From contig NC_086097.1 in assembly GCF_963921235.1 (NCBI RefSeq), positions 98,396,001 through 98,460,000 on the forward strand: a DNA stretch of 64,000 bases. Direction: 5' to 3'. Below, in pieces: positions 19,803 through 50,250 of this stretch (within the stretch, counting starts at the first letter, position 1; each line of letters opens with the position of its first letter). Below the pieces are notes generated by a model. That model worked only from the letters and a program-made list of their open reading frames with translations, ran no database searches and was not told the origin of the DNA. The stretch comes from Mobula hypostoma (Eukaryota). The position numbers were made by a program, and so were the translations under genes.

Positions 19803-20649
19803 GTAAAAATTTCTAACATGTACCACTTAGATCTGTTGCTCTTTGTGGGGTGGTTGGGACCGTTGTTACTTTGATATATTGGGGATCACTAATGGTCATC
19901 ACGGTTGGTGAATGGAGAAAATGATTGAAGTATGATTTGTTATTAAATCACTATGATCCTGGCCGTTAACCAAGTTGTGTCACTTGGATGTGGGGTTTGC
20001 ACAACAAAGCAGTGATAATTGGGAATTGATGGAAGCAATTCATTGGGAGAGTTATCTGATAGGAAGAGAGGAGTCACCATGATGTTCCTTTTGTTGAAGA
20101 AAGAGCTTAGGATATGTTTTGTGACTTAAATTTTGGTTTGTTGACTGTGTTGGCATTTCCCCATTTGTTTATCTCTTCATACCTATTGCAGGGGATCTAC
20201 TTACTGGTAATTGTAATGTTTTGTGCTGAGAACCACATATCTACGTTAGCCATCTTGATACTTGTAAATAGATAAATTGCCAATAAGTTATGCTAAATCA
20301 AATAAAATGCAGTTTTTTGCCACAGCAGATGCACATTTAAGCAGACAGAGTGCTCAGAAGGGTGTAAAAGTTTTAGCAGTACAGAAGAGCAATTTTTGAG
20401 GATGTGGGATTTCTCCTTGTTATAAGCTGCAGAATACAAGTTGGATTTTCTCAATTGAGGCAAAAAGATGTGATGATGTTTAATATTATAAACTGTGGGC
20501 AGAGTTCTTAAAAGTAATCCTGTGTCTTGCAACAGCAGAGAAGCTGAGAACCAGATTACAAAGACTTTTGGGCACAAGCACCAATGTGGAGCAACTGTGT
20601 AAACAACTGTTTTGGATTTGGAATAGAGCACCTGTAATGGTGTCAGAAG

Positions 20650-21210
20650 GACTGCAGAAGCTAGAATCTGGAGCAGAAACTAAACTATTGGAAGAAATCA
20701 GAATTATGATCTGCATCGAAGCTTAATGTAGGGAAAAGATGGCCAGCATGTAGAATTAAAAGGTGGGGGGGGGCAGGGGAATGAGACAGAGGCTGGAGGG
20801 TCAATGGTGGAACCAGATTGATGAGGGGGGAGGTACCTGCCAATCATTCCTCCCTTTTCTAGTTCTGCCTGTCTCCTCACAGCTTCTCTCGACCATTTAC
20901 TTCCACTTGGCTCCATCTGAGTAATTTTGTTCTTTGTGGTTCTATCGATCACCCACCCACCTCTCTCAAAACTGCTCCCACCCTCCCCACTTGGTTACAT
21001 CTGCCCTGTGTTTCCCAGCCACCCCATGCCAAGAAAATCTTGTTCTACCTATCATCTACTGTTCTCCATCTTGCTATTCTCTTTAACTTGTACAGACTGG
21101 CCATCTTCCCCCCTCAGTAAGTCTTGATGCAGTGTTTTGACTCAGTGTCATCTGTCCCTTTGCTTCCACAAATGCTGTTGGTCTACCCAGTTCTTCCATC
21201 AGTCTTTGAA
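20650..21210. mobile_element. Old, degraded fold-back PLE-like remnant
   Basis: gggaaaagatggccagcatgtagaattaaa (~20731) is an approximate inverted copy of ctttaacttgtacagactggccatcttcccc (~21081); decayed hammerhead/tail region at ~21120-21205. Confidence 0.45.
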
Positions 21211-22250
21211 AGAAAATTAGATAAATACATGAAGGAGAAAAAATCCGAAAGGATGTGTAAAGAGTTTATGGGCGTAGCTCTTAAAGGATTGCCCAATGGC
21301 TTACTTTTCTATATTAATCTGTGATTGGCGGTATAGTAAATAATGTACATAAGATGCTGGTAAAATGAAAGGGGATATTTGAGGCTGATGGATATCAGTG
21401 CAGCTGAATATGGTTGTTAATTTTTTTTGAACCATAGATGGTTGGATCCCAGAAGTATGGCGATTGATAAATAGATTTGGTTGAAGTAGGTTGTATCCCC
21501 TGTATTCTTTATCAAAGGTTTGTTTGCTGGGCAAAGACAGGGAATGATGGACATTTAGATATGGAGGCAATCATGGGATGTGGTCTCAATGCAGAGTGAC
21601 GGAAGTAAAGGGCAGCCATCATCTTACTGGCTATATATTGTCTCATGTTACATTTGATTACATGTGAACACTGCGATATCTGGTTCAGCTCCTCACCCAT
21701 TTACCCTCGATTCTTCCTTTGCCTTTGACATCTGTTTTCAATAATTCACTTTATCCCCAGTTAAACTTGGGGAAATCTGGAATCATTACCTTCTGTAGGT
21801 CTGCCAACAAAATAGTTTTTATGTTGAAAGAAATTGCTTGTCATCTGAAATGGTTTATCTAATCCCAGGTTCTCTTTATTGTAGACCTTATTTCTGTAGC
21901 AGCATTTACCTCTGCCTGTTATGTGAAATCCTCATCTGTGTCTCTAAAGCCTAGGTACAATTATTTCAATGTTGCCCTACGCTAATAAACCAGATTATTC
22001 AAAACATGCTGATCTTTCCTGGTCTTGTGTAATTGTTTGCCCTATTCTACACCATTGCTGGTCCTTCAAATTTACTGATTTGCAGCTACTGTAGGAACGG
22101 TTTAAAATCCTTCCCTGCACTCATCCCATTTTGTTTTGTAATTGTGCTGGGATGTTAATTTGTTGTCATAGGTCTGTAATGTGTACGATAATCTGATGCT
22201 GAATAGATTTGATGTTCTGAAGAATTGCATTAATTGTTTATGGTCTCCAG

Positions 22251-22371
22251 CTCCAGCAGTACCAATACTACAGCACTGGACTGCTATCCATGCATGACCA
22301 TTTTTATGAGCAGCAACGCCATGTCCTAGGTCCTAGCAGGAAGAAGAAAAAAGAAGAGAAAAAGATCAAGG
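22251..22371 (+). CDS. INO80: INO80 coding exon
   Basis: ctccag| ... |gtgagt; LQQYQYYSTGLLSMHDHFYEQQRHVLGPSRKKKKEEKKIK. Confidence 0.95.
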
Positions 22372-22774
22372 GTGAGTTGCATCAGTCTGCCATAAAGATC
22401 ATGGTTGCTATTTATTTTGTTTCATCCCATTGTAGTTTCCCGTGGAATAAATAACTGCTCTTTGAAAGCAGAAATATTCTATTAATTACTACTTTGGTGG
22501 TGTTTGATGTAAGTTTCAAGATGGCACAGAGCTGCAACCTCCTTTGAGGTTGCAGCTCAGTACTTTTTTGGGCTTATGGGAATGGTTTTGGGGATAGAGA
22601 GGGAAGTTTAGGGGTCAGGTTAGAGTTTAGGAAGAATGGATGAATTAAAGGACAGGCGGAGTCTTGCATCTCCACTCCACATTTGAAGGCCAGTGACGCT
22701 GATGTGGAACATCAGTGGATGGAGATTTTTGGCCGTATGTCAGATCGGCAGACCAGCGTTGGGTGAGCCTGGTG

Positions 22775-22952
22775 CCCCCCCACACCCTTCCTTCTTCCCC
22801 CCACACCCTTCCTTCTTCCCCCCACACCCTTCCTTCTTCCCCCCACACCCTTCCTTCTTCCCCCCACACCCTTCCTCCTTCCCCCCACACCCTTCCTCCC
22901 CCCCCACACCCTTCCTCCCCCCCCACACCCTTCCTCCTCTCTCCCCCCCCCC
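22775..22952. repeat. C-rich 21-bp minisatellite (ccccccacacccttccttctt)n
   Basis: About 4 perfect units followed by decaying units; G-tract-rich on the - strand. Confidence 0.95.
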
Positions 22953-23489
22953 AAACATCCCCATGTTCATCAAGTTGTCAGCAGGTTCTGTCTGGGCAGG
23001 AGAAATGAGGTCCAGTGACCCCCTAGTTTCGTGGATCAGGGAGTCCAGAGTTTGAGGCCTGGTGTTTCAGGTCCTGCCATCAGCGAACCGGAAGTCAAGG
23101 CCTGTTGGCCAGAGCCCTGGGTCTGTTAGTCTGCTGGGGCAGTGGTCATCTTTGAAGTCAAACAGGACAAAAGAAATATTTTTCTGAGCACTAGTTGAAC
23201 ATAATTTTAAAAAAATGATAGTAAACATGAAGTAAGCTTTTGTTGAGAAGCTTGTTTCATCTTACGAGGTTGCATTGCTTTGATATGCCATAGCCTGGGG
23301 CTCATATTACACAAAGAAGGTGATTTCAACCAACATTGCTCTCGTTGTAGTGTGTTTTGTGAGGTGTGGGGTTGGAGTATTTATTGAGTGAATGGGGTGG
23401 ATATGGACAATACTGTACATAGGTGTACAGATGGTGTGAAATTCATGATGTACCTGAGGAGGTAAAAGTTGAATATAATTTTTTTTCAG

Positions 23490-23698
23490 CTAAACTAAAG
23501 AAAGTGAAGAAGAAGAGGAAGCGTGAGGAGGAGCATTCTTCTGAAGAATCCCCACGGAGGGCAGAGATGAAAATATTTGCCAAATTCTCCCATGACGCTC
23601 CTCCTCCAGGTTCAAAGAAAAAGCACCTTAATCTGGAGCAGTTGAATGCACGGCGACGCAAGGTGTGGCTCAGTATTGCAAAAAAAGAGGTTCCTAAG
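23490..23698 (+). CDS. INO80: INO80 coding exon
   Basis: tttcag| ... |gtgaga; (A)KLKKVKKKRKREEEHSSEESPRRAEMKIFAKFSHDAPPPGSKKKHLNLEQLNARRRKVWLSIAKKEVPK. Confidence 0.97.
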
Positions 23699-23849
23699 GT
23701 GAGAACATGTACAGTGTTATATAGTGTACTGAGCAAGTGATGTGGCTGATCTCTCTTGAGTCAAACTGTGCTGTCAAATGGTAGAGGTTTCCTGCATATT
23801 TCCATCCATAATGTTTTTCAAGTGAGTTGAGGGTACATCATGGGAAGAG

Positions 23850-24358
23850 TAAATGGAAAATCAAGATTTGCAAAAGGCCTTTGACAAGGCTGTGAAAGAA
23901 TTTAAGAGCCCATGGTATTGCAGGAAAGATGCTGGATGGATAGAAAAGTGGCTGACTGGCAGGATGCAAAATGTGGGAATACAGGAAGCCTTCCTCTGTT
24001 GGCTGCCAGTGATTAATGCTGATTTGGAGGAGTTGGTGCTGGGATCACTTCTTTTCATGTTATATGTTAATGATCTGAATGACACAATTGATGACTTTGT
24101 GGCGAAGTTTGCAGACGATACAAATATAAGTGGAGGGTGGAGGAGCAGGGAGTCTGTAGAAGGACTTGGATTGATAAGGAGAATGTGGCAGATGGAATAT
24201 AGTGTATGATTATGCGCTTTAAAAGAAAAAAGCGTGTTATTTTCTAAATGGGGAGCAAATTCTGAAATCGGGTACAAAGAAACTTGGGGATCCTTGCAGA
24301 GGGTTCTGAAGGTTAACCTGCAATTTGAGTCTATAGTAAGGAAGTGGATTGCAATTTT
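23850..24358 (+). mobile_element. CR1 LINE RT fragment
   Basis: DLQKAFDK..WIEKWLTGR..VLGSLLFMLYVNDL..KFADDT. Confidence 0.85.
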
Positions 24359-24422
24359 AGCAACACACCTCAAAGTTGCAGGTGAACGCAGCAGGCCAGG
24401 CAGCATCTCTAGGAAGAGGTAC

Positions 24423-24458
24423 AGTCGACGTTTCAGGCCGAGACCCTTCGTCAGGACT
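24423..24458 (-). ncRNA. Minimal hammerhead ribozyme, intact core, antisense to INO80
   Basis: Reverse complement reads AGTCCTGACGAAGGGTCTCGGCCTGAAACGTCGACT, identical to the + strand copy at 25051. Confidence 0.85.
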
Positions 24459-25050
24459 AACTGAAGGAAGAGTTAGTAAGAGATTTGAAAGTAGGAGGGG
24501 GAGGGAGAGATCCGAAATGATAGGAGAAGACAGGAGGGGGAGGGATGGAGCCAAGAGCTGGACAGGTGATTGGCAAAGGGGATATGATAGGATCATGGGA
24601 CAGGAGGCCCAGGGAGAAAGAAAAGGTGGGGGAGAGAAAAAGCCCAGAGGGTGGGCAAGAGGTATAGTGAGAGGGACAGAGGGAGAAAAAGGAGAGAGAG
24701 AAAAAGAATGTGTGTGTATATATAAATAAATAACATTTGGGGCACGAGGGGGAGGTGGGGCATTAGCAGAAGTTTGAGAAGTCAATGTTCATTAGCCCTC
24801 CCCATCGTACCCCATCCGTTATTTATATATATATATACACACATTCTTTTTATCTCTCTCCTTTTTCTCCCTCTGCCTCTCTCACTATATCCCTTGCCCA
24901 TCCTTTGGGCTTTTCCCCCCCTCCCCCGTTTCTTTCTCCCTTGGCCTCCTGTCCCATGATCCTCTCATATCCCTCCTGTCTTCTCCTATCATTTCGGATC
25001 TCCCCCTCCCCCTCCCACTTTCAAATCTCTTACTATCTCTTCTTTCAGTT

Positions 25051-25086
25051 AGTCCTGACGAAGGGTCTCGGCCTGAAACGTCGACT
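25051..25086 (+). ncRNA. Minimal type I hammerhead ribozyme (PLE-associated), intact core
   Basis: AGTC-CTGACGA-AGG GTCTCGG CCT-GAAAC-GTC-GACT: stem I AGUC/GACU, CUGANGA box, stem II, GAAA box, palindromic ACGU stem III; predicted cut after GUC at 25082. Confidence 0.85.
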
Positions 25087-26009
25087 GTACCTCTTCCTAG
25101 AGATGCTGCCTGGCCTGCTGCGTTCACCAGCAACTTTTATGTGTGTTGCTTGAAATTCCAGCATCTGCAGATTTCCTCATGTATCACAGATATTTCGATT
25201 GTTTTCTGTAGTCCTTTCCCGCCATCTTTTGAAGTTGAAAATTAGTTTTCGCTTTTCCATTTCTAATAAAGGGTACTCAGCTGAAATATTACCTGTCTTT
25301 GCTTAAACACAGCCTGACTTTGTGAATGTTTCCAACATTTCTTCAGCAAAGAGGGCAGATAGATGCTTTCTAACATCTATCATTGCATGCAGAATGATGT
25401 GATTATACATTTAGTTCTGGCAAAGTTGAAAGTGCAGATGTCTAAATTGGGTGGAGTGGAGTTCAGACCAAGAGATGGGAAACAAAGCTGAAGTTATAAG
25501 ATGTGAGCTGGCAATGGTAGATTGCCAAACTATATTAAAATATATAACAGTTAAAAAGTGTCTAACATTTAAAAAATTTTATCTAGTTCGTAAATATTCC
25601 TTTAAGACACCACAATGCACCAGGCAGTGTTGATCGGATGGTAGTTTTTGAGGTACAGTACTTAAAATTTTTAATTGGAAAGATTGTGTAATATTGCTGA
25701 AAAGAACAATAAAAAGATTTGAAAAGTCATCAAAAGGTGTACCAACAATAGATAAAGGAAAGAAAGAAGATGAAAGTAATTAAAAGAAAAACACAGATAA
25801 ATCGCAAAAGCTTTTTAATGTATGTAAAAAGGGAAAGATTGGTAAAAAGAAAAATAAGAAATACCAGTTTATTGTGCCCTTGACCCAAGAAATTATTTTA
25901 TGGTTTGAGATTTGTTCACAGAAGAATACACGGAATACCACTGAATAATGATGGAAAGCGAGAACTAGAGTGAATGAGAAGCTGAAAAAATATTGACCAA
26001 GTTCATTTA

Positions 26010-26840
26010 AAATTAAAGTTCAATGTAGATTTGTTATCAAAGTATATTTATATCACAATATATAACCCTGAGGTTCACTTTCTTGCGGGTATACTCAATA
26101 AATCGATAATAGAATCAATGAAAGACCACAGCAACATGGGCATTCAACCAGTGTGCACAAGGCAACAAACTGTGAATACGATAAGAAGAAAATAATGATA
26201 ATAAATCAGTAATAAATATTGAGAACATAAGATGAAGAGTCCTTGAAAGTGAAACCATAGGTTGTGGGAATATTTTGATGATGGAGTGACTGAAACTATC
26301 CCTTTTGATTCAAGAGCCTGGTTGACTGGTAATAACTTCCTTAACCTGGTGGTGAGTCTCCTGAAGCTCCTGTACCACCTTCCTGATGGCAGTGAGAAGA
26401 GATGGTCTCTGGTGATGGATGCTGGTTCCTGTGACAATGCTTCATGTGAATATGCTCAATAGTGGGGAGGGTTTTACCCATGATGGGCTGGGCTGTATCC
26501 ACTACCTTTTGTAGGATTTTCTGTTCAAGACCATTGATGTTTTCATACCAGGCTGTGATGCAACCAGTCAATATACTCTCCACCATACATCTGTACAAGT
26601 TTGTCAAAGTTTTAGATGTCATGCCAAATGTTTGCAAACTCTTAAGGAAGTAGAGGCGTTGCTGTGCTTTCTTCGTAATTGCACTTGTATGCTGGGCCCA
26701 GGACAAGTCCTCTGAAATGATAACACCAAGGAATTTGAAATTGTTGATCCTCTCCAGCTCTGATCCTCTGATTAGACTTGTTCATGGACCTCTGGTTTCC
26801 TCCCCCTGAAGTCAGTAGTTAGCTCCTTGGTTTTGCTAAA
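26010..26840 (-). mobile_element. Rex/Babar-like LINE 3' fragment
   Basis: SWAQHTSAITKKAQQRLYFL...LYRCMVESILTGCITAWY; LPSGRWYRS. Confidence 0.85.
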
Positions 26841-28030
26841 ACATGATTGACTACATCCTAACGATTTGAAAATAACGAACCCAATAGTTGTCATTTAGTA
26901 ATACTGTCATATATTCAAGACTGAGGTAGTAAATATAAGCTCTATGGAAATGGATGATTAAGCATGGATGTAAATATGAATCATCTTGATATGGATAGTA
27001 AGTGAAATTCTAGAATCTGTGATTAAGAAATTGATGACAGAGGAATTATTAATAGGAATGGGCAGAATTAGAGTAATTTGCGATATGGAAATGGTGTTTG
27101 AGAAATTCGTTAGCACTCTTGAGATTGCAACTAGCAGAAACGATGGGGACCGAGTCAATGTAGTGTATACGGGCTCTCTGGAAGGTCTTTGATAAGGAGC
27201 CACATATTAAACTAGACTGGAACACATGGGGCAGAGTGCAATATAATACTGGCATGAATTAAAGATTGGTTAACAGATGGAAAACATAAAAATAAACTTT
27301 TGTGGTTTGAAGTTGATATCTAGTGGGTGTCACAGACAGGTGGGGGACCCCAGATATTCACAATCAACTTCAATGATTTAGGATAAGGAGATCTAGTGTA
27401 ATTTATCAAGTGTGCTGATGATACAAAGCTAGATTTCTGTGAGGAGAGTGCAAAGGGTTTTGCAGGAGGACATGGGTAAAGAAATGGCAGATAAAATATT
27501 GTGGAAATAAAAGGAGAAGCCAGTCACTTGGTAGGACAAATGAAAAGGTGGTCTATTTTGTTTTTAAATGGTGAGAAATTGAAGTATTAATGTTTATAGG
27601 AACCTCCCTAAAGTTAACATGTAAGTGCAGCAAGCAATTAGTAAGCTAAGCAGTATGCTAGCTTTTATTACAAGAGGAGTTGAGAGCTAGGGTAAAGAAA
27701 CTTTAGTGCAAGGGTTCCCAATCTTTATTGTCCCATGGGCGCTTGCCATTAACAGAGGGGTCTGTGAAATTAAATAGGGCCCCACCTTGAGATTTCACCT
27801 GGGATATTGTGTGTGGGTCTTCCGACCTCTGTATTCTTCTGTATTCGTTAGGATTCTACAATATTTCCTGTAGATGATAAAAATTCATGGAAGGGGGGAG
27901 ATTATTCCAAGGTGAAGTGTGGTTAAGGATGAGAGGTAGTATGGGAATTCTAGTTTGATTTACCCTGGTTCAGTCAGGCAGGGTGGGTATCATGTTGAGG
28001 AATGTCTGATTTCCTTTTGGGTTTTTGCAG

Positions 28031-28084
28031 GTCTACAAGCAGAAATCCTCAGCGCGCAACATGGTTCTCACCAACACCAAGAAG
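28031..28084 (+). CDS. INO80: INO80 coding exon (54 nt)
   Basis: ttgcag| ... |gtaggt; VYKQKSSARNMVLTNTKK, equivalent to INO80 ANKQKASARNLFLTNSRK. Confidence 0.93.
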
Positions 28085-28429
28085 GTAGGTCACTCACAAA
28101 AACATGGTAAATTGAGGGAAATTAATGGGACAGCTCAAAATAATTCCACTCCCAAGTAGTGGAATGGTCGGGGCTTTTGGGTACAGGGTAGTGAGGTGCT
28201 GATGGAAGTGCGATATGGTATGGGATTATGTACCCCAGCTTCTACAATTAGTTGTTATTAAATGGATGGAACTTATCAATTTGCACAGTATTCCATGAGA
28301 ATTTTCCCTTAAATGTACAGGCATAAATGTTGACTGCAGAGCACAGAGCTCTTCTATTATGGTGTTATTGCAAGATTTCGATCTATATCAAAGGCCAGTT
28401 ACTGTAAATTGCTTCAGTACAGTGTAGAG

Positions 28430-29095
28430 CAATTTGATGTTACTGTTGATGGTGTGGATGTGGTGAGGACCTATGGGTACCTGGGGGTGCACGTGGAATA
28501 CAGACTGAGTGGAGCACCAACGCAGAGGCTGTGTACAAGAAGGGCCAGAGTCACCTCTACTGCCTGAGGAGACTGAGGTCCTTTGGAGTATGCAGGCCTC
28601 GCCTTCTCATGTTCTACCAGTCTGTTGTTGCCAGTACAATCTTCTGTGCGGTGGTGTGCTGGGACAATGACATCAACACAGGTGATGCCAACAGGCTCAA
28701 TGAACAGATTAGAAAGGCTGGCTCTGCTGTAGGAGTCAAAACTAGACACACTGGAAGCTGTAGTAGAACAAAGGACCCTACAGAAAATCCTGTCAGTTCT
28801 GGACGATGTTTCTCACCCTCTGCATGCCACTTGGCTAAACAGAGTAAGACTTTTAGTCTAAGACAACTGCGTTACCAAAGAGCACTATAAAGAGGTCATT
28901 CTTACCCTCGGCCATTGGGCTCTATAACGAGTCAACCTATAACTGGGGAAGTGGTGACCCCCCCCCCCAGACTGTTTGTAGTAACTTATCTTTTATTCTT
29001 TCTACTTCTCTTCTAATGTTTATATCTGTGTACTTGTAATGCTACTATGACTGTAATTTCCTTTGGGATCAATAACGTATCTTTCTATCTATATC
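28430..29095 (+). mobile_element. Rex-like LINE 3' fragment
   Basis: YKKGQSHLYCLRRLRSFGVC..FYQSVVASTIF; tail gggatcaataacgtatctttctatct. Confidence 0.8.
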
Positions 29096-29277
29096 TTATC
29101 AGTGGCTGAGGATGTGTCATGTGAATGTTGTTTTGAGAACAAGGGTTTTAAGTAGTTTGCTGCTTCCCATAAACACAAGTGACAGTGACAACCAGCATTG
29201 ATGGTAGAACCATTTGTTTGATTTTATGTTTGATATTTTTATGTATCGCTATATTTGTGCTTTTTGTCTTTTGCCAG

Positions 29278-29481
29278 CTGGCACACCAGTGTATGCGAGA
29301 AGTGCGGAGGGCTGCCATCCAGGCACAAAAGAATTGTAAAGAAACGCTACCACGAGCTCGCAGGCTGACCAAAGAGATGTTGTTGTACTGGAAAAAATAT
29401 GATAAAGTAGAGAAGGAACATCGGAAACGGGCAGAGAAAGAAGCCCTGGAACAGCGGAAACTGGATGAAGAGATGCGTGAG
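29278..29481 (+). CDS. INO80: INO80 coding exon (DBINO/HSA helix)
   Basis: tgccag| ... |gtttga; LAHQCMREVRRAAIQAQKNCKETLPRARRLTKEMLLYWKKYDKVEKEHRKRAEKEALEQRKLDEEMRE. Confidence 0.98.
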
Positions 29482-30439
29482 GTTTGAAGTTTTTTAGCAC
29501 TTGATTTAACAGTAAATATTTGTTAAAGGATAAAACCGGAGAGGAAAAATAGTAGACCTTTCATTTAAGATAGAGCCTCTGACTGTTGATTGTTTACTTC
29601 TGGCTGACGGATGGAGGTATGTAGCTGAATGGAAGTATATGACATAGAAATCATTCCAAACAAACCCAAAATATGTATAGCACCTTTAAAAACTGGAAAG
29701 CACTGCAAAATTCTTGCACAATGATACTTTGCTAAGGTAGTGCGTGTAAGTTTTGGATAAATGTGGATTTCAAGTTTAAAAGTGTTAAGAAGTGGCTCTG
29801 AACTGTGGGGAGGTTTCGACAGAGAATTACAGAAGTACGCAATTGCAATTTTACGTGAACTACAATTCCTTATGTTCGACAGTTGGATTTTGTAAAATGA
29901 TAGGGACAGGATGGGAAAGAATTAATTTGCTAGGAAGGGATTAGATATGAGAAATTTTGAACTCATTGGTTGATATGAATTGAGGGGAGGTTGCTGGAGT
30001 GTCATGTGGAAAGTGAATAATAGTAGTTTGTGTTCTCTCAATATTTAGTATGGTGTTAGGAAATGGACTCTCTGTCTTACTAACTTGGTTGTAAGATATC
30101 TTCTACTTGGTGGTTGATGAGTACCTGCTTTGAAAATCACACATTGAAGACTGTGGCAAAGTATTAAATTCTATGAAATTAAGGGACAAATGTCATATAG
30201 GACATTTTGCAAATTTAGATTGGAATGTGATTTAGTCAGAAATGAAGTTCATCAGAGCTCAGTTTTCCAGTTCATCGTTAACAAATATTTAAATAAGGTT
30301 TGAAAGAAATCACATGTGAAGTTGTATTAAACACAAATAGGGTGAAGAATTTGGAGCAAATTGATAGTCTGCATACTGATGGATATGGTGTACAGCTTGG
30401 GCAAATGGTGTTATGTTAATGGTCAGAAGTCTGGAACTT

Positions 30440-47550: not shown

Positions 47551-49160
47551 ATTTATAAGACCATAAGATACAGGAGCAGAATTATACTATTTGGCCAATG
47601 AAGTCTGCTCTGCCATTTCATCATGGGTGATCCATTTTCCCCTCAGCACCAATTTCCTGCTTTCTCCCCATATCCTTTCATGGCTTGACTAATCAAGAAA
47701 CTATCAACCTCTGCCTTAAATATACCCAATGACTTGGCCTTCACAGCCGCCTGTGGCAACAAATTACATAGATTCACCAACCTGGCTAAAGAAATTTCCC
47801 CTCATCTCCATTCTAAAAGGACACCCTCTATTCTGAAGCTGTGTCCTCTGATCTTAGACTTCCCCACCATAGGAAACATATCCACATCCACTCTATTGAG
47901 GCCTTTCACCATTTGATAGGTTTCAATGAGGTCCTCCTTCATTCTTCTGAATTCCAGTGAATGCAGGCCCAGAGCCATTAAGTGCTCCTCATATGATAAG
48001 CCTTTCAATCCCAGAATCATTTTCGTAAATCTTTGAAATCTCGCCAATATCATCACACCCTTTATTAGATAGAGGGCTCAAAACTGCTCACAGTACTCTA
48101 AATGAGGCCTCACCTGTGCTTTATAAAGCCTCAATATTACGTCCTCGCTCTTATATTCTCGCCCCCTCGAAATGAATGCGAACATCGTGTTTGCCTTCCT
48201 CACCACAGGCTTAACCTGCAAACTAACCTTTAGGGAATCGTGCACGAGGGCTCCAAAGTCCCTTTGCACCTCAGATTTTTGTATTTCTCTCCATTTAGAA
48301 AAAGTCTACACTTTTATTTCTTCTACCAAAGTGCATGACCATACACTTTCCAACACTGTATTCCATCTGCCACTTCTTCGCCCATTCTGCTAATCTAAGT
48401 CCTACTGTAGCCACTTTACTTTCTTAAAACCACCTGCTCCTCCTCCTATTTTCGAATTGACTGCAAAATTGGCCACAAACCCATGAATTTCATCATCCAA
48501 ATCATTGACAGATAACATGAAAAGAAGCGCTCCCAACACAGATCCCTCTGGAACACCATTAGTCACTGGCAGCCAACCAGAAAAGGCCTCTCTTTGCCAC
48601 CTGCCAGTCAGCCAATCTTCTATCCATGCTTGTATCTTTCCTGTAATACCATGGGTTCTTTTCTTGTTAAGCAGTCTTGTCTGTGGTACCTTGTTAAAGA
48701 CCATCTGAAAATCCAAGTACACAAAATCCACCAATTTCCCTTTATCTATCCTGCTTGTTATTCAAAGATTTCCAACAGATTTTTCATGCAAGATTTTCCA
48801 TTAGGGAAACCATGTTGACTATGGCATACTTTATCATGCTTCTCCAAGTACCCCGAAACCTCATCCTTATGAACTCCAACACCTTCCCGACCGCTGATGT
48901 CAGGCTAACTGGCTTATAAATTCCTTTCTTCTGTCTCCCTCCCATCTTGAAGAGAAGAGCGATAATTACAATTTTGCAGTCCTCTGGAATCATTCCAGAA
49001 TCTTGTGATTTTTGGAAAGATCATTAGTAATGCCTCCAGTCTTTTCAGCCACCTCTTTCAGAACCCTAGGTGTCATCCATCTGTTCCAGGTGATTTATCT
49101 ATGTTACTTACAACACGCTGGAGGAACTCAGCAGGTCGGACAGCATCCGTGGAAACAATC

Positions 49161-49196
49161 AGTCAACGTTTTGGGCCGGAACCCTTCGTCAGGACT
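49161..49196 (-). ncRNA. Hammerhead motif, probably inactive (GAAA>AAAA)
   Basis: Reverse complement: AGTC-CTGACGA-A-GGG TTCCGG CCC-AAAAC-GTT-GACT. Confidence 0.65.
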
Positions 49197-49515
49197 GAAG
49201 AGAGAAGGGGCAGAGGCCCTATAAAGAAGGTGGGGGGAGGGTGGGAAGGAGAAGGCTGGTAGGTGCCAGGTGAAAAACCAGTAAGGGGAAAGATAAAGGG
49301 GTGGCGGAGGGGAAGCAGGGAGGGGATAGGCAGGAAAGGTGAAGGACCTCCAGTGTGTTGTGATCCTTCTTCACCTTTCCTGCCTATTCCCTCCCTGCTT
49401 CCCTCCCCCACCCCTTTATCTTTCCCCTTACTGGTTTTTCACCTGGAACCTACCAGCCGCCTCCTTCCCACCCTCCCCCCACCTTCTTTATAGGGCCTCT
49501 GCCCCTTTCCTCTTC

Positions 49516-49551
49516 AGACCTGACAAAGGGTTCCCGCTGGAAACGTTGACT
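49516..49551 (+). ncRNA. Degenerate hammerhead motif
   Basis: AGAC-CTGACAA-AGGGTTCCCGCTG-GAAAC-GTT-GACT; core and stems mutated. Confidence 0.55.
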
Positions 49552-50250
49552 GATCGTTTCCATGGATGCTGCCCGACCTGCTGAGTTCCTCCAGCGTGTT
49601 GTGAGTGTTGCTTTGACCGAAGCACCTGCAGAATATTTTGTGTTTATGATTTATCTACGTTCACACCTTTCAGCTTCACGAACACCTTCTCCCGATATAT
49701 GGCTAGCAACCGTACTCCCTTCTAGCCATTGGCACTCTCGAACTTCCAGTACACTACTGCTGTGTTCCACAATGAAGACTGATACAAAATTCATCTGCCT
49801 TTTTTTTGTACCCCTTTACTACCTCTCCAGAACCATTTTTCAGCAGTCTAGTGTTCAGTATTTCCTCTCTTACCCTTTATATATTTGAAAAACTTTTTGT
49901 ATCCTCTTAGATATTTCTGCCTAGCTTACCTTCATATTTTATGGCTTTTTTGGTTGCCTTCTGTTGTGTTTTTTTTTTAAAGGTTCCTATTCCTCTTTGA
50001 TTTCTATTAACTGCTACTCCTTAATTAACCTTTAAACCTCACAATTTTCTCTCCTTGACAGACTTTTTTAATAGCTATTATCCGCAACATTTGGCTGTTT
50101 GAAAGCAATGGTTACCATTATTGTGTGCTTGTATTCTACCAAATGATTGTAATGAGATCCAATTAATTATTAATATCTGTTTGATATGTGTACATTTGAC
50201 TCATTGATAACTTGAGCTCACTTTTTAAGTTCTTTCTCTTCTTCTGCCAG

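What the first reader, a model, noticed from the sequence alone, without database searches (positions are those of the whole stretch)
24359..25182. Fold-back retroelement with a hammerhead ribozyme on each strand, inside an INO80 intron
Seen: two ~360-400 bp inverted arms, each with an identical, core-intact minimal hammerhead (AGUC-CUGACGA-AGG/CCU-GAAAC-GUC-GACU), at 24423-24458 (-) and 25051-25086 (+). The spacer encodes a PLE-like ORF end (MNIDFSNFC*). Established: Penelope-like elements carry minimal hammerheads in their pLTRs, these cleave as dimers because stem III is a short palindrome, and PLEs can form inverted pLTR arrangements. Inference: a transcript from either strand would be a long rod carrying one ribozyme, an architecture reminiscent of retrozymes and viroid-like RNAs. 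This may be a poorly described non-autonomous ribozyme retroelement family in this lineage.
Basis: partly seen in the sequence, partly recalled or inferred. Interest (0 to 1): 0.82.

Follow-up and report, generated by a model that had tools for sequence, protein, structure and literature searches.

The report
Ordinary fold-back Penelope retroelement insertion
The 824-base hairpin in an INO80 intron is two truncated tail ends of a very abundant Penelope-like jumping gene joined head to head, likely at the moment of insertion, and its two tiny hammerhead ribozyme motifs are predicted to be silenced by pairing with each other's complement, so it is an ordinary example of a known pattern rather than a new ribozyme element.

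Summary
Both arms are 5'-truncated 3' ends of a Penelope-like element (PLE) whose hammerhead core has 46,104 exact copies here. Long copies carry a hammerhead on each side of a 1043-codon open frame with RT and GIY-YIG motifs. About half of sampled insertions are fold-backs (44 of 87). They vary from 161 to 2,596 nt, with 39 different junctions in 39, and this window's junction occurs once. So fold-backs are likely made at insertion, not copied as a unit. All 39 pair one long-tailed with one short 3' end; 32 of 39 have target duplications. Inverted pLTRs, the tail and opposite-strand minimal hammerheads are in print. In a transcript the ribozyme is predicted to be fully paired with the antisense arm (about 75 kcal/mol to free), and cores decay like neutral DNA. 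What remains of interest: the strict long-plus-short rule suggests priming from both target strands. The scan found this pattern before, here and in other genomes.

The parts
24359..24792 (-). Left arm: 5'-truncated PLE 3' end (last 10 codons of the ORF, 3' UTR/pLTR, hammerhead), ending at the short 3' site, no tail
   Evidence: 87.8% to the 3' pLTR of long copy L148; reference positions 2539 to short site
24763..24792 (-). C-terminal end of the PLE RT/GIY-YIG ORF, MNIDFSNFC*
   Evidence: long copies end ...GSLQPDGMNIDFSNFR*
24423..24458 (-). Minimal type I hammerhead motif, minus strand; predicted cut between 24427 and 24426
24793..24796 (.). Head-to-head junction, 4 extra letters (TAGC); unique in the genome
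24797..25182 (+). Right arm: 5'-truncated PLE 3' end with a 43-nt internal deletion, ending at the long 3' site
25051..25086 (+). Minimal type I hammerhead motif, plus strand (the one in the INO80 pre-mRNA sense); predicted cut after 25082
25151..25182 (+). 32-nt PLE 'tail' present on the right arm only
23501..23698 (+). INO80 coding exon upstream (the part tested), context
   Evidence: PDB match to human INO80 224-291
24100..24358 (+). Old repeat (LINE-like, label recalled) cut off at the insertion; it is not continued on the right flank and no target duplication is left

Best explanation
This is two 5'-truncated 3' ends of an abundant endonuclease-bearing Penelope-like retrotransposon joined head to head, likely made in one insertion event and likely inert since. 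Shown: both arms match the pLTR of long copies with an open RT plus GIY-YIG frame; fold-backs are common, of any length, each with its own junction; one arm always ends at a long 3' site and the other about 33-37 nt earlier; most are bounded by one target duplication; the two arms usually share donor variants. Inferred mechanism: the element's protein nicks both strands of the target. One 3' end primes reverse transcription at the distal internal start site of the RNA and the other at the proximal site. The two incomplete cDNAs are then joined by end repair, which gives an inverted repeat with a tail on one side. The hammerhead rides along because it lies about 60-130 nt upstream of both start sites. 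Its likely job is in the parent's tandem transcript, as a dimer or with protein help. In this copy the INO80 pre-mRNA meets the antisense arm first, so the sense motif is predicted to be locked in a long duplex and not to cleave.
For: 46,104 exact hammerhead matches, 0 for the reversed control; 85,845 for a downstream 26-mer. 6 of 12 fetched long loci show hammerhead-ORF-hammerhead spaced 3,507-3,515 nt around a 1043-codon open frame, with ADKG, YIDD, CKRNKCYTC linker and GVIYCVRCSRC...YIGET motifs. 39 of 39 abutting pairs are long+short. In a sample picked downstream of the ribozyme, 44 of 87 insertions have an abutting inverted partner, and 35 of 35 with both 3' ends present are long+short (overlaps the first sample). 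Repeats of 7 nt or more bound 32 of 39 pairs, 29 of them 12-17 nt, against 6 of 195 shuffled flank pairs. Arms of a pair differ at 54 of 459 shared-variant cells (11.8%) against 43% in shuffles, 0 of 2000 as low (42 pairs). Either arm can reach further 5' (long 14, short 22, tie 3) and their reach is correlated (rho 0.53, p 0.0005). 3,190 short fold-backs genome-wide. Rod masks the ribozyme. Core decay 14/521 and 21/690 against 136/8213 in the flanking tract. Literature.
Against: The window's own copy has no target duplication, and the repeat cut at its left edge does not resume on the right, so single-event origin is inferred for it from the family pattern. Its arms differ at 6 of 27 shared-variant cells, more than most pairs. 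Its ribozyme segment is unusually clean: 0 differences in 85 columns against 27 in 234 upstream, while 13 other pairs show 3.6% and 3.7%; longest-run test p 0.003, or 0.07 for private differences only. Pfam hits to RVT_1 and GIY-YIG are below the curated cut-offs. Double priming is inferred from end products; Arkhipova 2013 proposed self-priming on an antisense template. Samples come from the first 5.5 Mb of one contig.
Confidence: 0.88

Rival explanations
1. Same identity, other mechanism: the second arm is made by fold-back self-priming of a nascent strand (or on an antisense template), not by priming from the second target strand.
For: Proposed from junction palindromes in PMC3846280 (passages). 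Several junctions show short overlaps or palindromes. Arms usually share donor variants.
Against: A first strand started at the long site that copies itself needs the long-tailed arm always to reach further 5', but the short arm does so in 22 of 39 pairs (20 by more than 5 nt). A first strand started at the short site holds no tail to copy. Some pairs differ at several shared-variant cells. The purified anole PLE protein cleaves and extends both target strands (PMC11167929). An antisense-template version is not excluded.
Confidence: 0.25
2. A non-autonomous, ribozyme-processed fold-back family (retrozyme- or viroid-like) that is transcribed, cut and copied as a unit.
For: Intact cores on both strands and a very stable rod; thousands of short fold-backs; animal retrozymes are argued to derive from PLE pLTRs (10.64898/2026.07.22.740005).
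Against: Junction single-copy with up to 2 mismatches; 39 distinct junction pairs in 39 and lengths of 161-2,596 nt; the 50 listed short fold-backs have 32 different spacings. No same-strand tandem ribozymes in the unit. Ribozyme predicted sequestered. Only 2 of 100 arms start at the cut site, positions 2895-2899.
Confidence: 0.03
3. This copy has been kept by selection as an intronic hairpin or ribozyme that tunes INO80 splicing, editing or decay.
For: Ribozyme segment identical in both arms, with 0 of 128 cells off the commonest letter against 15 of 396 upstream; it lies in an intron of an essential gene.
Against: The finding was picked for its intact cores. 62 of 72 unselected copies also keep the core. 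The clean run is not significant on private differences (p 0.07). Conversion between arms would give the same picture. With tens of thousands of copies, intronic ones are expected.
Confidence: 0.04
4. Two separate insertions, the second landing at the 5' end of the first in the opposite direction, or two donor RNAs in one event.
For: No target duplication; arms 7.9% apart, each closer to another held arm (5.5-5.6%) than to its partner; 6 of 27 shared-variant differences.
Against: It follows the long+short rule and has a 4-nt junction like the duplication-bounded pairs; its left flank repeat is cut with no continuation, which fits a deletion that removed the duplication.
Confidence: 0.1

Closest known systems
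Complex insertion units of endonuclease-bearing PLEs: adjacent inverted 5'-truncated copy plus 30-40 bp tail (Craig et al., 10.1101/2021.04.23.441226, passages; Arkhipova et al., PMC3846280, passages)
   Same: Head-to-head inverted truncated copy, tail on one end only (32 nt here), target duplication around the whole unit in most copies, partial tandems forming pLTRs.
   Different: This copy has lost its target duplication. The passages read give the pattern in words; here it is counted (39 of 39 long+short; 44 of 87 insertions inverted).
[quoted passage not shown]
   Same: CUGANGA and GAAA cores, short stem I, palindromic 15.2-16.2 positions with no stem III loop, extra base before stem II, pLTR location. 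The paper also reports dual motifs 100-700 bp apart on opposite strands in Schistosoma.
   Different: The usual G10.1-C11.1 pair is G-U (or A-U in the other register) in this copy; the C form is in 17 of 84 sampled arms. Cartilaginous fish were not named in the parts read. No activity test here.
Poseidon PLE of Anolis carolinensis, PAc (Frangieh et al., PMC11167929, parts 1-2 of 4)
   Same: Two adjacent internal RT start sites that define the tail, downstream of the hammerhead; both target strands cleaved and extended; ribozyme not needed for insertion and protein-assisted.
   Different: This element has the Cys linker of Neptune/Nematis, which Poseidon lacks. Its first in-frame Met lies downstream of the tail, whereas the PAc ORF starts within the ribozyme. 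That paper saw no start-site difference between strands; here the two ends of one insertion always differ.
Metazoan non-LTR retrozymes (PMC7229834, passages; 10.64898/2026.07.22.740005, part 1 of 5 and passages)
   Same: Type I hammerhead, PLE-related sequence, no coding capacity, a few hundred bases.
   Different: Retrozymes are head-to-tail tandem repeats with same-strand ribozymes that release monomers and circles; this is an inverted pair with one masked ribozyme per strand and no repeated unit.

Membership tests
Endonuclease-bearing (EN+) Penelope-like element | Single ORF with RT and C-terminal GIY-YIG endonuclease in the parent | tested here: met
   1043-codon open frames; RVT_1 E 4e-5 and GIY-YIG E 0.004 in L151, both below Pfam cut-offs; ADKG, YIDD, GVIY...YIGET motifs
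Endonuclease-bearing (EN+) Penelope-like element | CCHH motif with two Cys between GIY and YIG | tested here: met
   GVIYCVRCSRC...YIGET, His at 975 and 991
Endonuclease-bearing (EN+) Penelope-like element | pLTRs formed by partial tandems, holding a hammerhead | tested here: met
   6 of 12 fetched long loci, spacing 3,507-3,515 nt
Endonuclease-bearing (EN+) Penelope-like element | 5' truncation, inverted adjacent copy, 30-40 nt tail on one end | tested here: met
Endonuclease-bearing (EN+) Penelope-like element | Target-site duplication | tested here: inconclusive
   Met in 32 of 39 fold-backs, not in the window's own copy
Neptune (or Nematis) clade | CX2-5CxxC linker between RT and EN | tested here: met
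   CKRNKCYTC at 910; definition
Neptune (or Nematis) clade | RT phylogeny with reference elements | not tested
   No reference PLE proteins were fetched
Minimal type I hammerhead | Core CUGANGA, GAAA, NUH, stems I and II, palindromic minimal stem III | tested here: met
   no Rfam model hit
Minimal type I hammerhead | Self-cleavage (as dimer or with protein help) | not testable with these tools
   Folding only: masked in the rod
Non-LTR retrozyme | Head-to-tail tandem units, each with a same-strand hammerhead | tested here: not met
   Motifs are on opposite strands; no direct repeat of the unit
Non-LTR retrozyme | Monomeric linear and circular RNAs | not testable with these tools
   No raw RNA reads available
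Non-autonomous fold-back family | Shared length and junction among dispersed copies | tested here: not met
Named Dfam/Repbase family | Match to a library consensus | not testable with these tools
   No repeat library is held

The most novel reading that the evidence does not exclude
These fold-backs are a genome-wide record of how Penelope-like elements integrate: a dimeric RT-endonuclease primes from both strands of one target, always using the distal start site for one strand and the proximal site for the other, mostly on RNA of one donor, with the two cDNAs growing in step. The many mini-copies would be run-off products from the start sites in the 5' pLTR, stopping at an RNA 5' end just upstream of the hammerhead (an initiator-like TCAGTT, motif recalled) and not at the ribozyme cut. 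Tens of thousands of dated copies and open-frame parents make this directly testable.
Probability: 0.45. Interest if true: 0.5.

Novelty: new member of a known kind. Interest (0 to 1): 0.2.

Why it matters
The locus itself matters little: it is one old copy among tens of thousands. The family is useful because the origin of inverted pLTRs and tails is still described as unresolved (passages), and this genome offers large counts and open-frame parents to test double-ended priming against self-priming. It also warns that long intronic hairpins with a ribozyme on each strand in such genomes are PLE debris by default. They would add many long double-stranded RNA stretches to pre-mRNAs (inference).

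Tried and rejected
Rfam scan of 20000-30000 at E up to 5: only generic hairpin (miRNA/snoRNA) matches below their cut-offs, no hammerhead. DNA search of the own genome with 24980-25182 returned nothing because very common words are skipped; patterns were used instead. Pile-up of 5' ends at the ribozyme cut: rejected, 2 of 100 arms at 2895-2899 against 25 of 100 at 2850-2869. Selection on the core in inserted copies: rejected. A shared upstream exon spliced to the CAG just before stem I: not seen among the 24 unpaired copies inspected, whose upstream letters differ and often run straight into the target duplication. Degenerate target duplication for the window's copy: none found. Sequencing runs: no RNA holder listed for L148:4050-4900. 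Four contig-only runs laid on 23450-25700 piled up on both arms from many family copies, and no piece covered the centre, where repeats were skipped: no evidence either way on expression or cleavage. Literature searches for PLE plus twin priming, PLE plus tail/both strands, and PLE or hammerhead plus cartilaginous fish listed no paper that, by title and abstract start, describes this family or the strict long+short rule. I saw only listings there, and subscription journals, Repbase and Dfam are not covered. Supplements of the cited papers were not opened and may hold elasmobranch motifs or similar counts.

Full report
Observation. The window holds an inverted repeat from 24359 to 25182. The left arm (24359-24792, minus strand) and right arm (24797-25182, plus strand) are joined by four extra letters. 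Each carries the same minimal hammerhead motif at the coordinates given, and MNIDFSNFC* reads at 24792-24763 on the minus strand. The upstream exon matches human INO80 224-291 and INO80-like peptide resumes near 29281. The 'spacer' is not a separate part: it is the further 5' reach of the left arm. The right arm has a 43-nt deletion and a 32-nt outer tail that the left arm lacks. Rfam found no hammerhead model. I take the host for a cartilaginous fish from recall; no call names it.

What the arms are. A 31-nt pattern over the ribozyme has 46,104 exact matches in the 3.48-Gb genome and 0 for the reversed control; a 26-mer just downstream has 85,845. Copies extend upstream to different lengths into an ORF ending ...GSLQPDGMNIDFSNFR*. 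A protein search gave 14,868 candidates, 150 scored, several in 1043-codon open frames. Of 12 long loci fetched, 6 show hammerhead-ORF-hammerhead in direct orientation 3,507-3,515 nt apart, the partial-tandem pLTR layout of PLEs. The protein has ADKG, MGT, YIDD, a CKRNKCYTC linker and GVIYCVRCSRC...YIGET with two later His. Pfam gives RVT_1 and GIY-YIG, both under their curated cut-offs. By the definitions in Craig et al. (passages) this is a C-terminal EN+ PLE with the Neptune/Nematis linker; no tree was built. The window's arms are 87.8% and 77.9% (with the deletion) identical to the pLTR of long copy L148.

Fold-backs are made at insertion. I took the DNA around the first 100 listed matches (first 5.5 Mb of contig C1) plus the window. 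BLAST against a natural long copy gave 171 hits reaching the 3' end, 149 kept as this family; 78 form 39 abutting head-to-head pairs and 71 were unpaired by that rule, some being parts of wider or interrupted pairs. In a second sample, picked downstream of the ribozyme so as not to favour intact cores (100 arms, 87 insertions, overlapping the first), 44 insertions have an abutting inverted partner. Units range from 161 to 2,596 nt with 39 distinct junction pairs in 39, and three fetched fold-backs span about 6 kb. Genome-wide, 3,190 short fold-backs have cores within 80 nt. The window's junction occurs once with up to 2 mismatches. Repeats of 7 nt or more bound 32 of 39 pairs (29 of 12-17 nt, upper bounds since element ends may overlap) against 6 of 195 shuffled flank pairs. 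So a fold-back is one insertion event and is not copied onward as a unit.

The long-plus-short rule. 3' ends fall in two groups, near reference 2961-2965 and near 2998. All 39 pairs combine one of each; in the second sample 35 of 35 pairs with both ends present do so, and 9 partners lack a 3' end. The long-tailed arm is left in 17 and right in 22 pairs; either arm may reach further 5' (long 14, short 22, tie 3), and their reach is correlated (rho 0.53, p 0.0005). Arms of a pair differ at 54 of 459 shared-variant cells against 43% in shuffles and 3.0% at other columns (39 pairs plus 3 wider pairs added by hand). They mostly come from one donor or subfamily, sometimes not. Frangieh et al. (parts 1-2 of 4) showed that a purified PLE protein cleaves and extends both target strands, starts at two adjacent internal sites that define the tail, is predicted to be a dimer, and does not need ribozyme cleavage. 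I infer that each target strand primes at one of the two sites and that the two cDNAs are joined by end repair. Simple self-copying of a long-site cDNA is contradicted by the 22 pairs in which the short arm reaches further. The antisense self-priming model of Arkhipova et al. (passages) is not fully excluded.

The ribozyme. It fits the minimal descriptor of Cervera and De la Pena (parts 1-2 of 4), who found no cleavage for a single motif, low cleavage for dimers, and dual motifs 100-700 bp apart on opposite strands in Schistosoma. Here the 824-nt transcript folds as a rod (-646 kcal/mol) in which all 36 ribozyme bases pair with the antisense arm; forcing the hammerhead stems costs 74.6-76.0 kcal/mol on either strand. 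In inserted copies the cores decay at 2.7-3.0% against 1.7% in the flanking tract, largely at CpG sites; 62 of 72 keep the core. 5' ends do not gather at the cut (2 of 100 at 2895-2899) but just upstream of the core (25 of 100 at 2850-2869, against 10 in the 50 nt before). That suggests an RNA 5' end or an RT stop there; an initiator-like TCAGTT (motif recalled) sits at that place. This is untested.

Against my reading. The window's copy has no target duplication and the old repeat on its left is cut without continuation. Its arms are 7.9% apart and differ at 6 of 27 shared-variant cells, so two donors are possible. Its ribozyme segment is cleaner than expected (0 of 85 against 27 of 234; 13 other pairs 40 of 1102 against 73 of 1951); a longest-run test gives p 0.003, or 0.07 on private differences. 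Selection of the finding for intact cores, or conversion between arms, explains this more simply than function, but it was not resolved. Samples come from one region of one contig.

Comparison and verdict. [quoted passage not shown] Retrozymes are head-to-tail tandems with same-strand ribozymes, which this is not. My searches listed no paper on this family or on the strict pairing rule (listings only), and Dfam and Repbase could not be checked. Earlier notes of this scan reached the same reading in this and other genomes; I had stated mine before opening them. Verdict: a new member of a known kind, interest 0.2; the mechanism-level reading is the part worth following.

Noticed in passing
window:15786-15960: A second, short fold-back of a related older PLE end, with a short left arm and a long-tailed right arm and the ribozyme cut off at the junction.
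   Followed up: partly
window:53656-53751, 49106-49198, 49514-49614: Older related PLE ends; the 53660 copy keeps a core with a different stem II (AGGGTCTTGACCT) and CUGAAGA.
   Followed up: partly
L157, L158, L159: Fold-backs of about 6 kb in which both arms carry open frames of about 880-1020 codons, showing that both cDNAs can be nearly full length in one event.
   Followed up: partly
L100:1428-3450 and L036:3435-5567: Complex insertions in which a tail or short 3' end is joined to an internal piece of the element before the inverted junction, suggesting template jumps after priming at the long site.
   Followed up: no
reference position 2888 (window 25075): The usual G-C pair closing stem II next to GAAA is G-U in most copies (T in 67, C in 17 of 84 arms), so most copies carry a weakened or re-registered stem II.
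   Followed up: partly
reference 2850-2869 (window about 25036-25055): 5' ends pile up just upstream of the ribozyme core, at a pyrimidine tract ending in TCAGTT, which looks both like an initiator and like a 3' splice site (motifs recalled).
   Followed up: partly
L148:4459-4545: In long copies the open frame begins within the tail, but the first in-frame Met lies 28 codons in, just downstream of the long 3' site, giving a 1016-aa protein.
   Followed up: no
window:22755-22962: C-rich 21-nt tandem repeat (about 8 copies) in the preceding intron.
   Followed up: no
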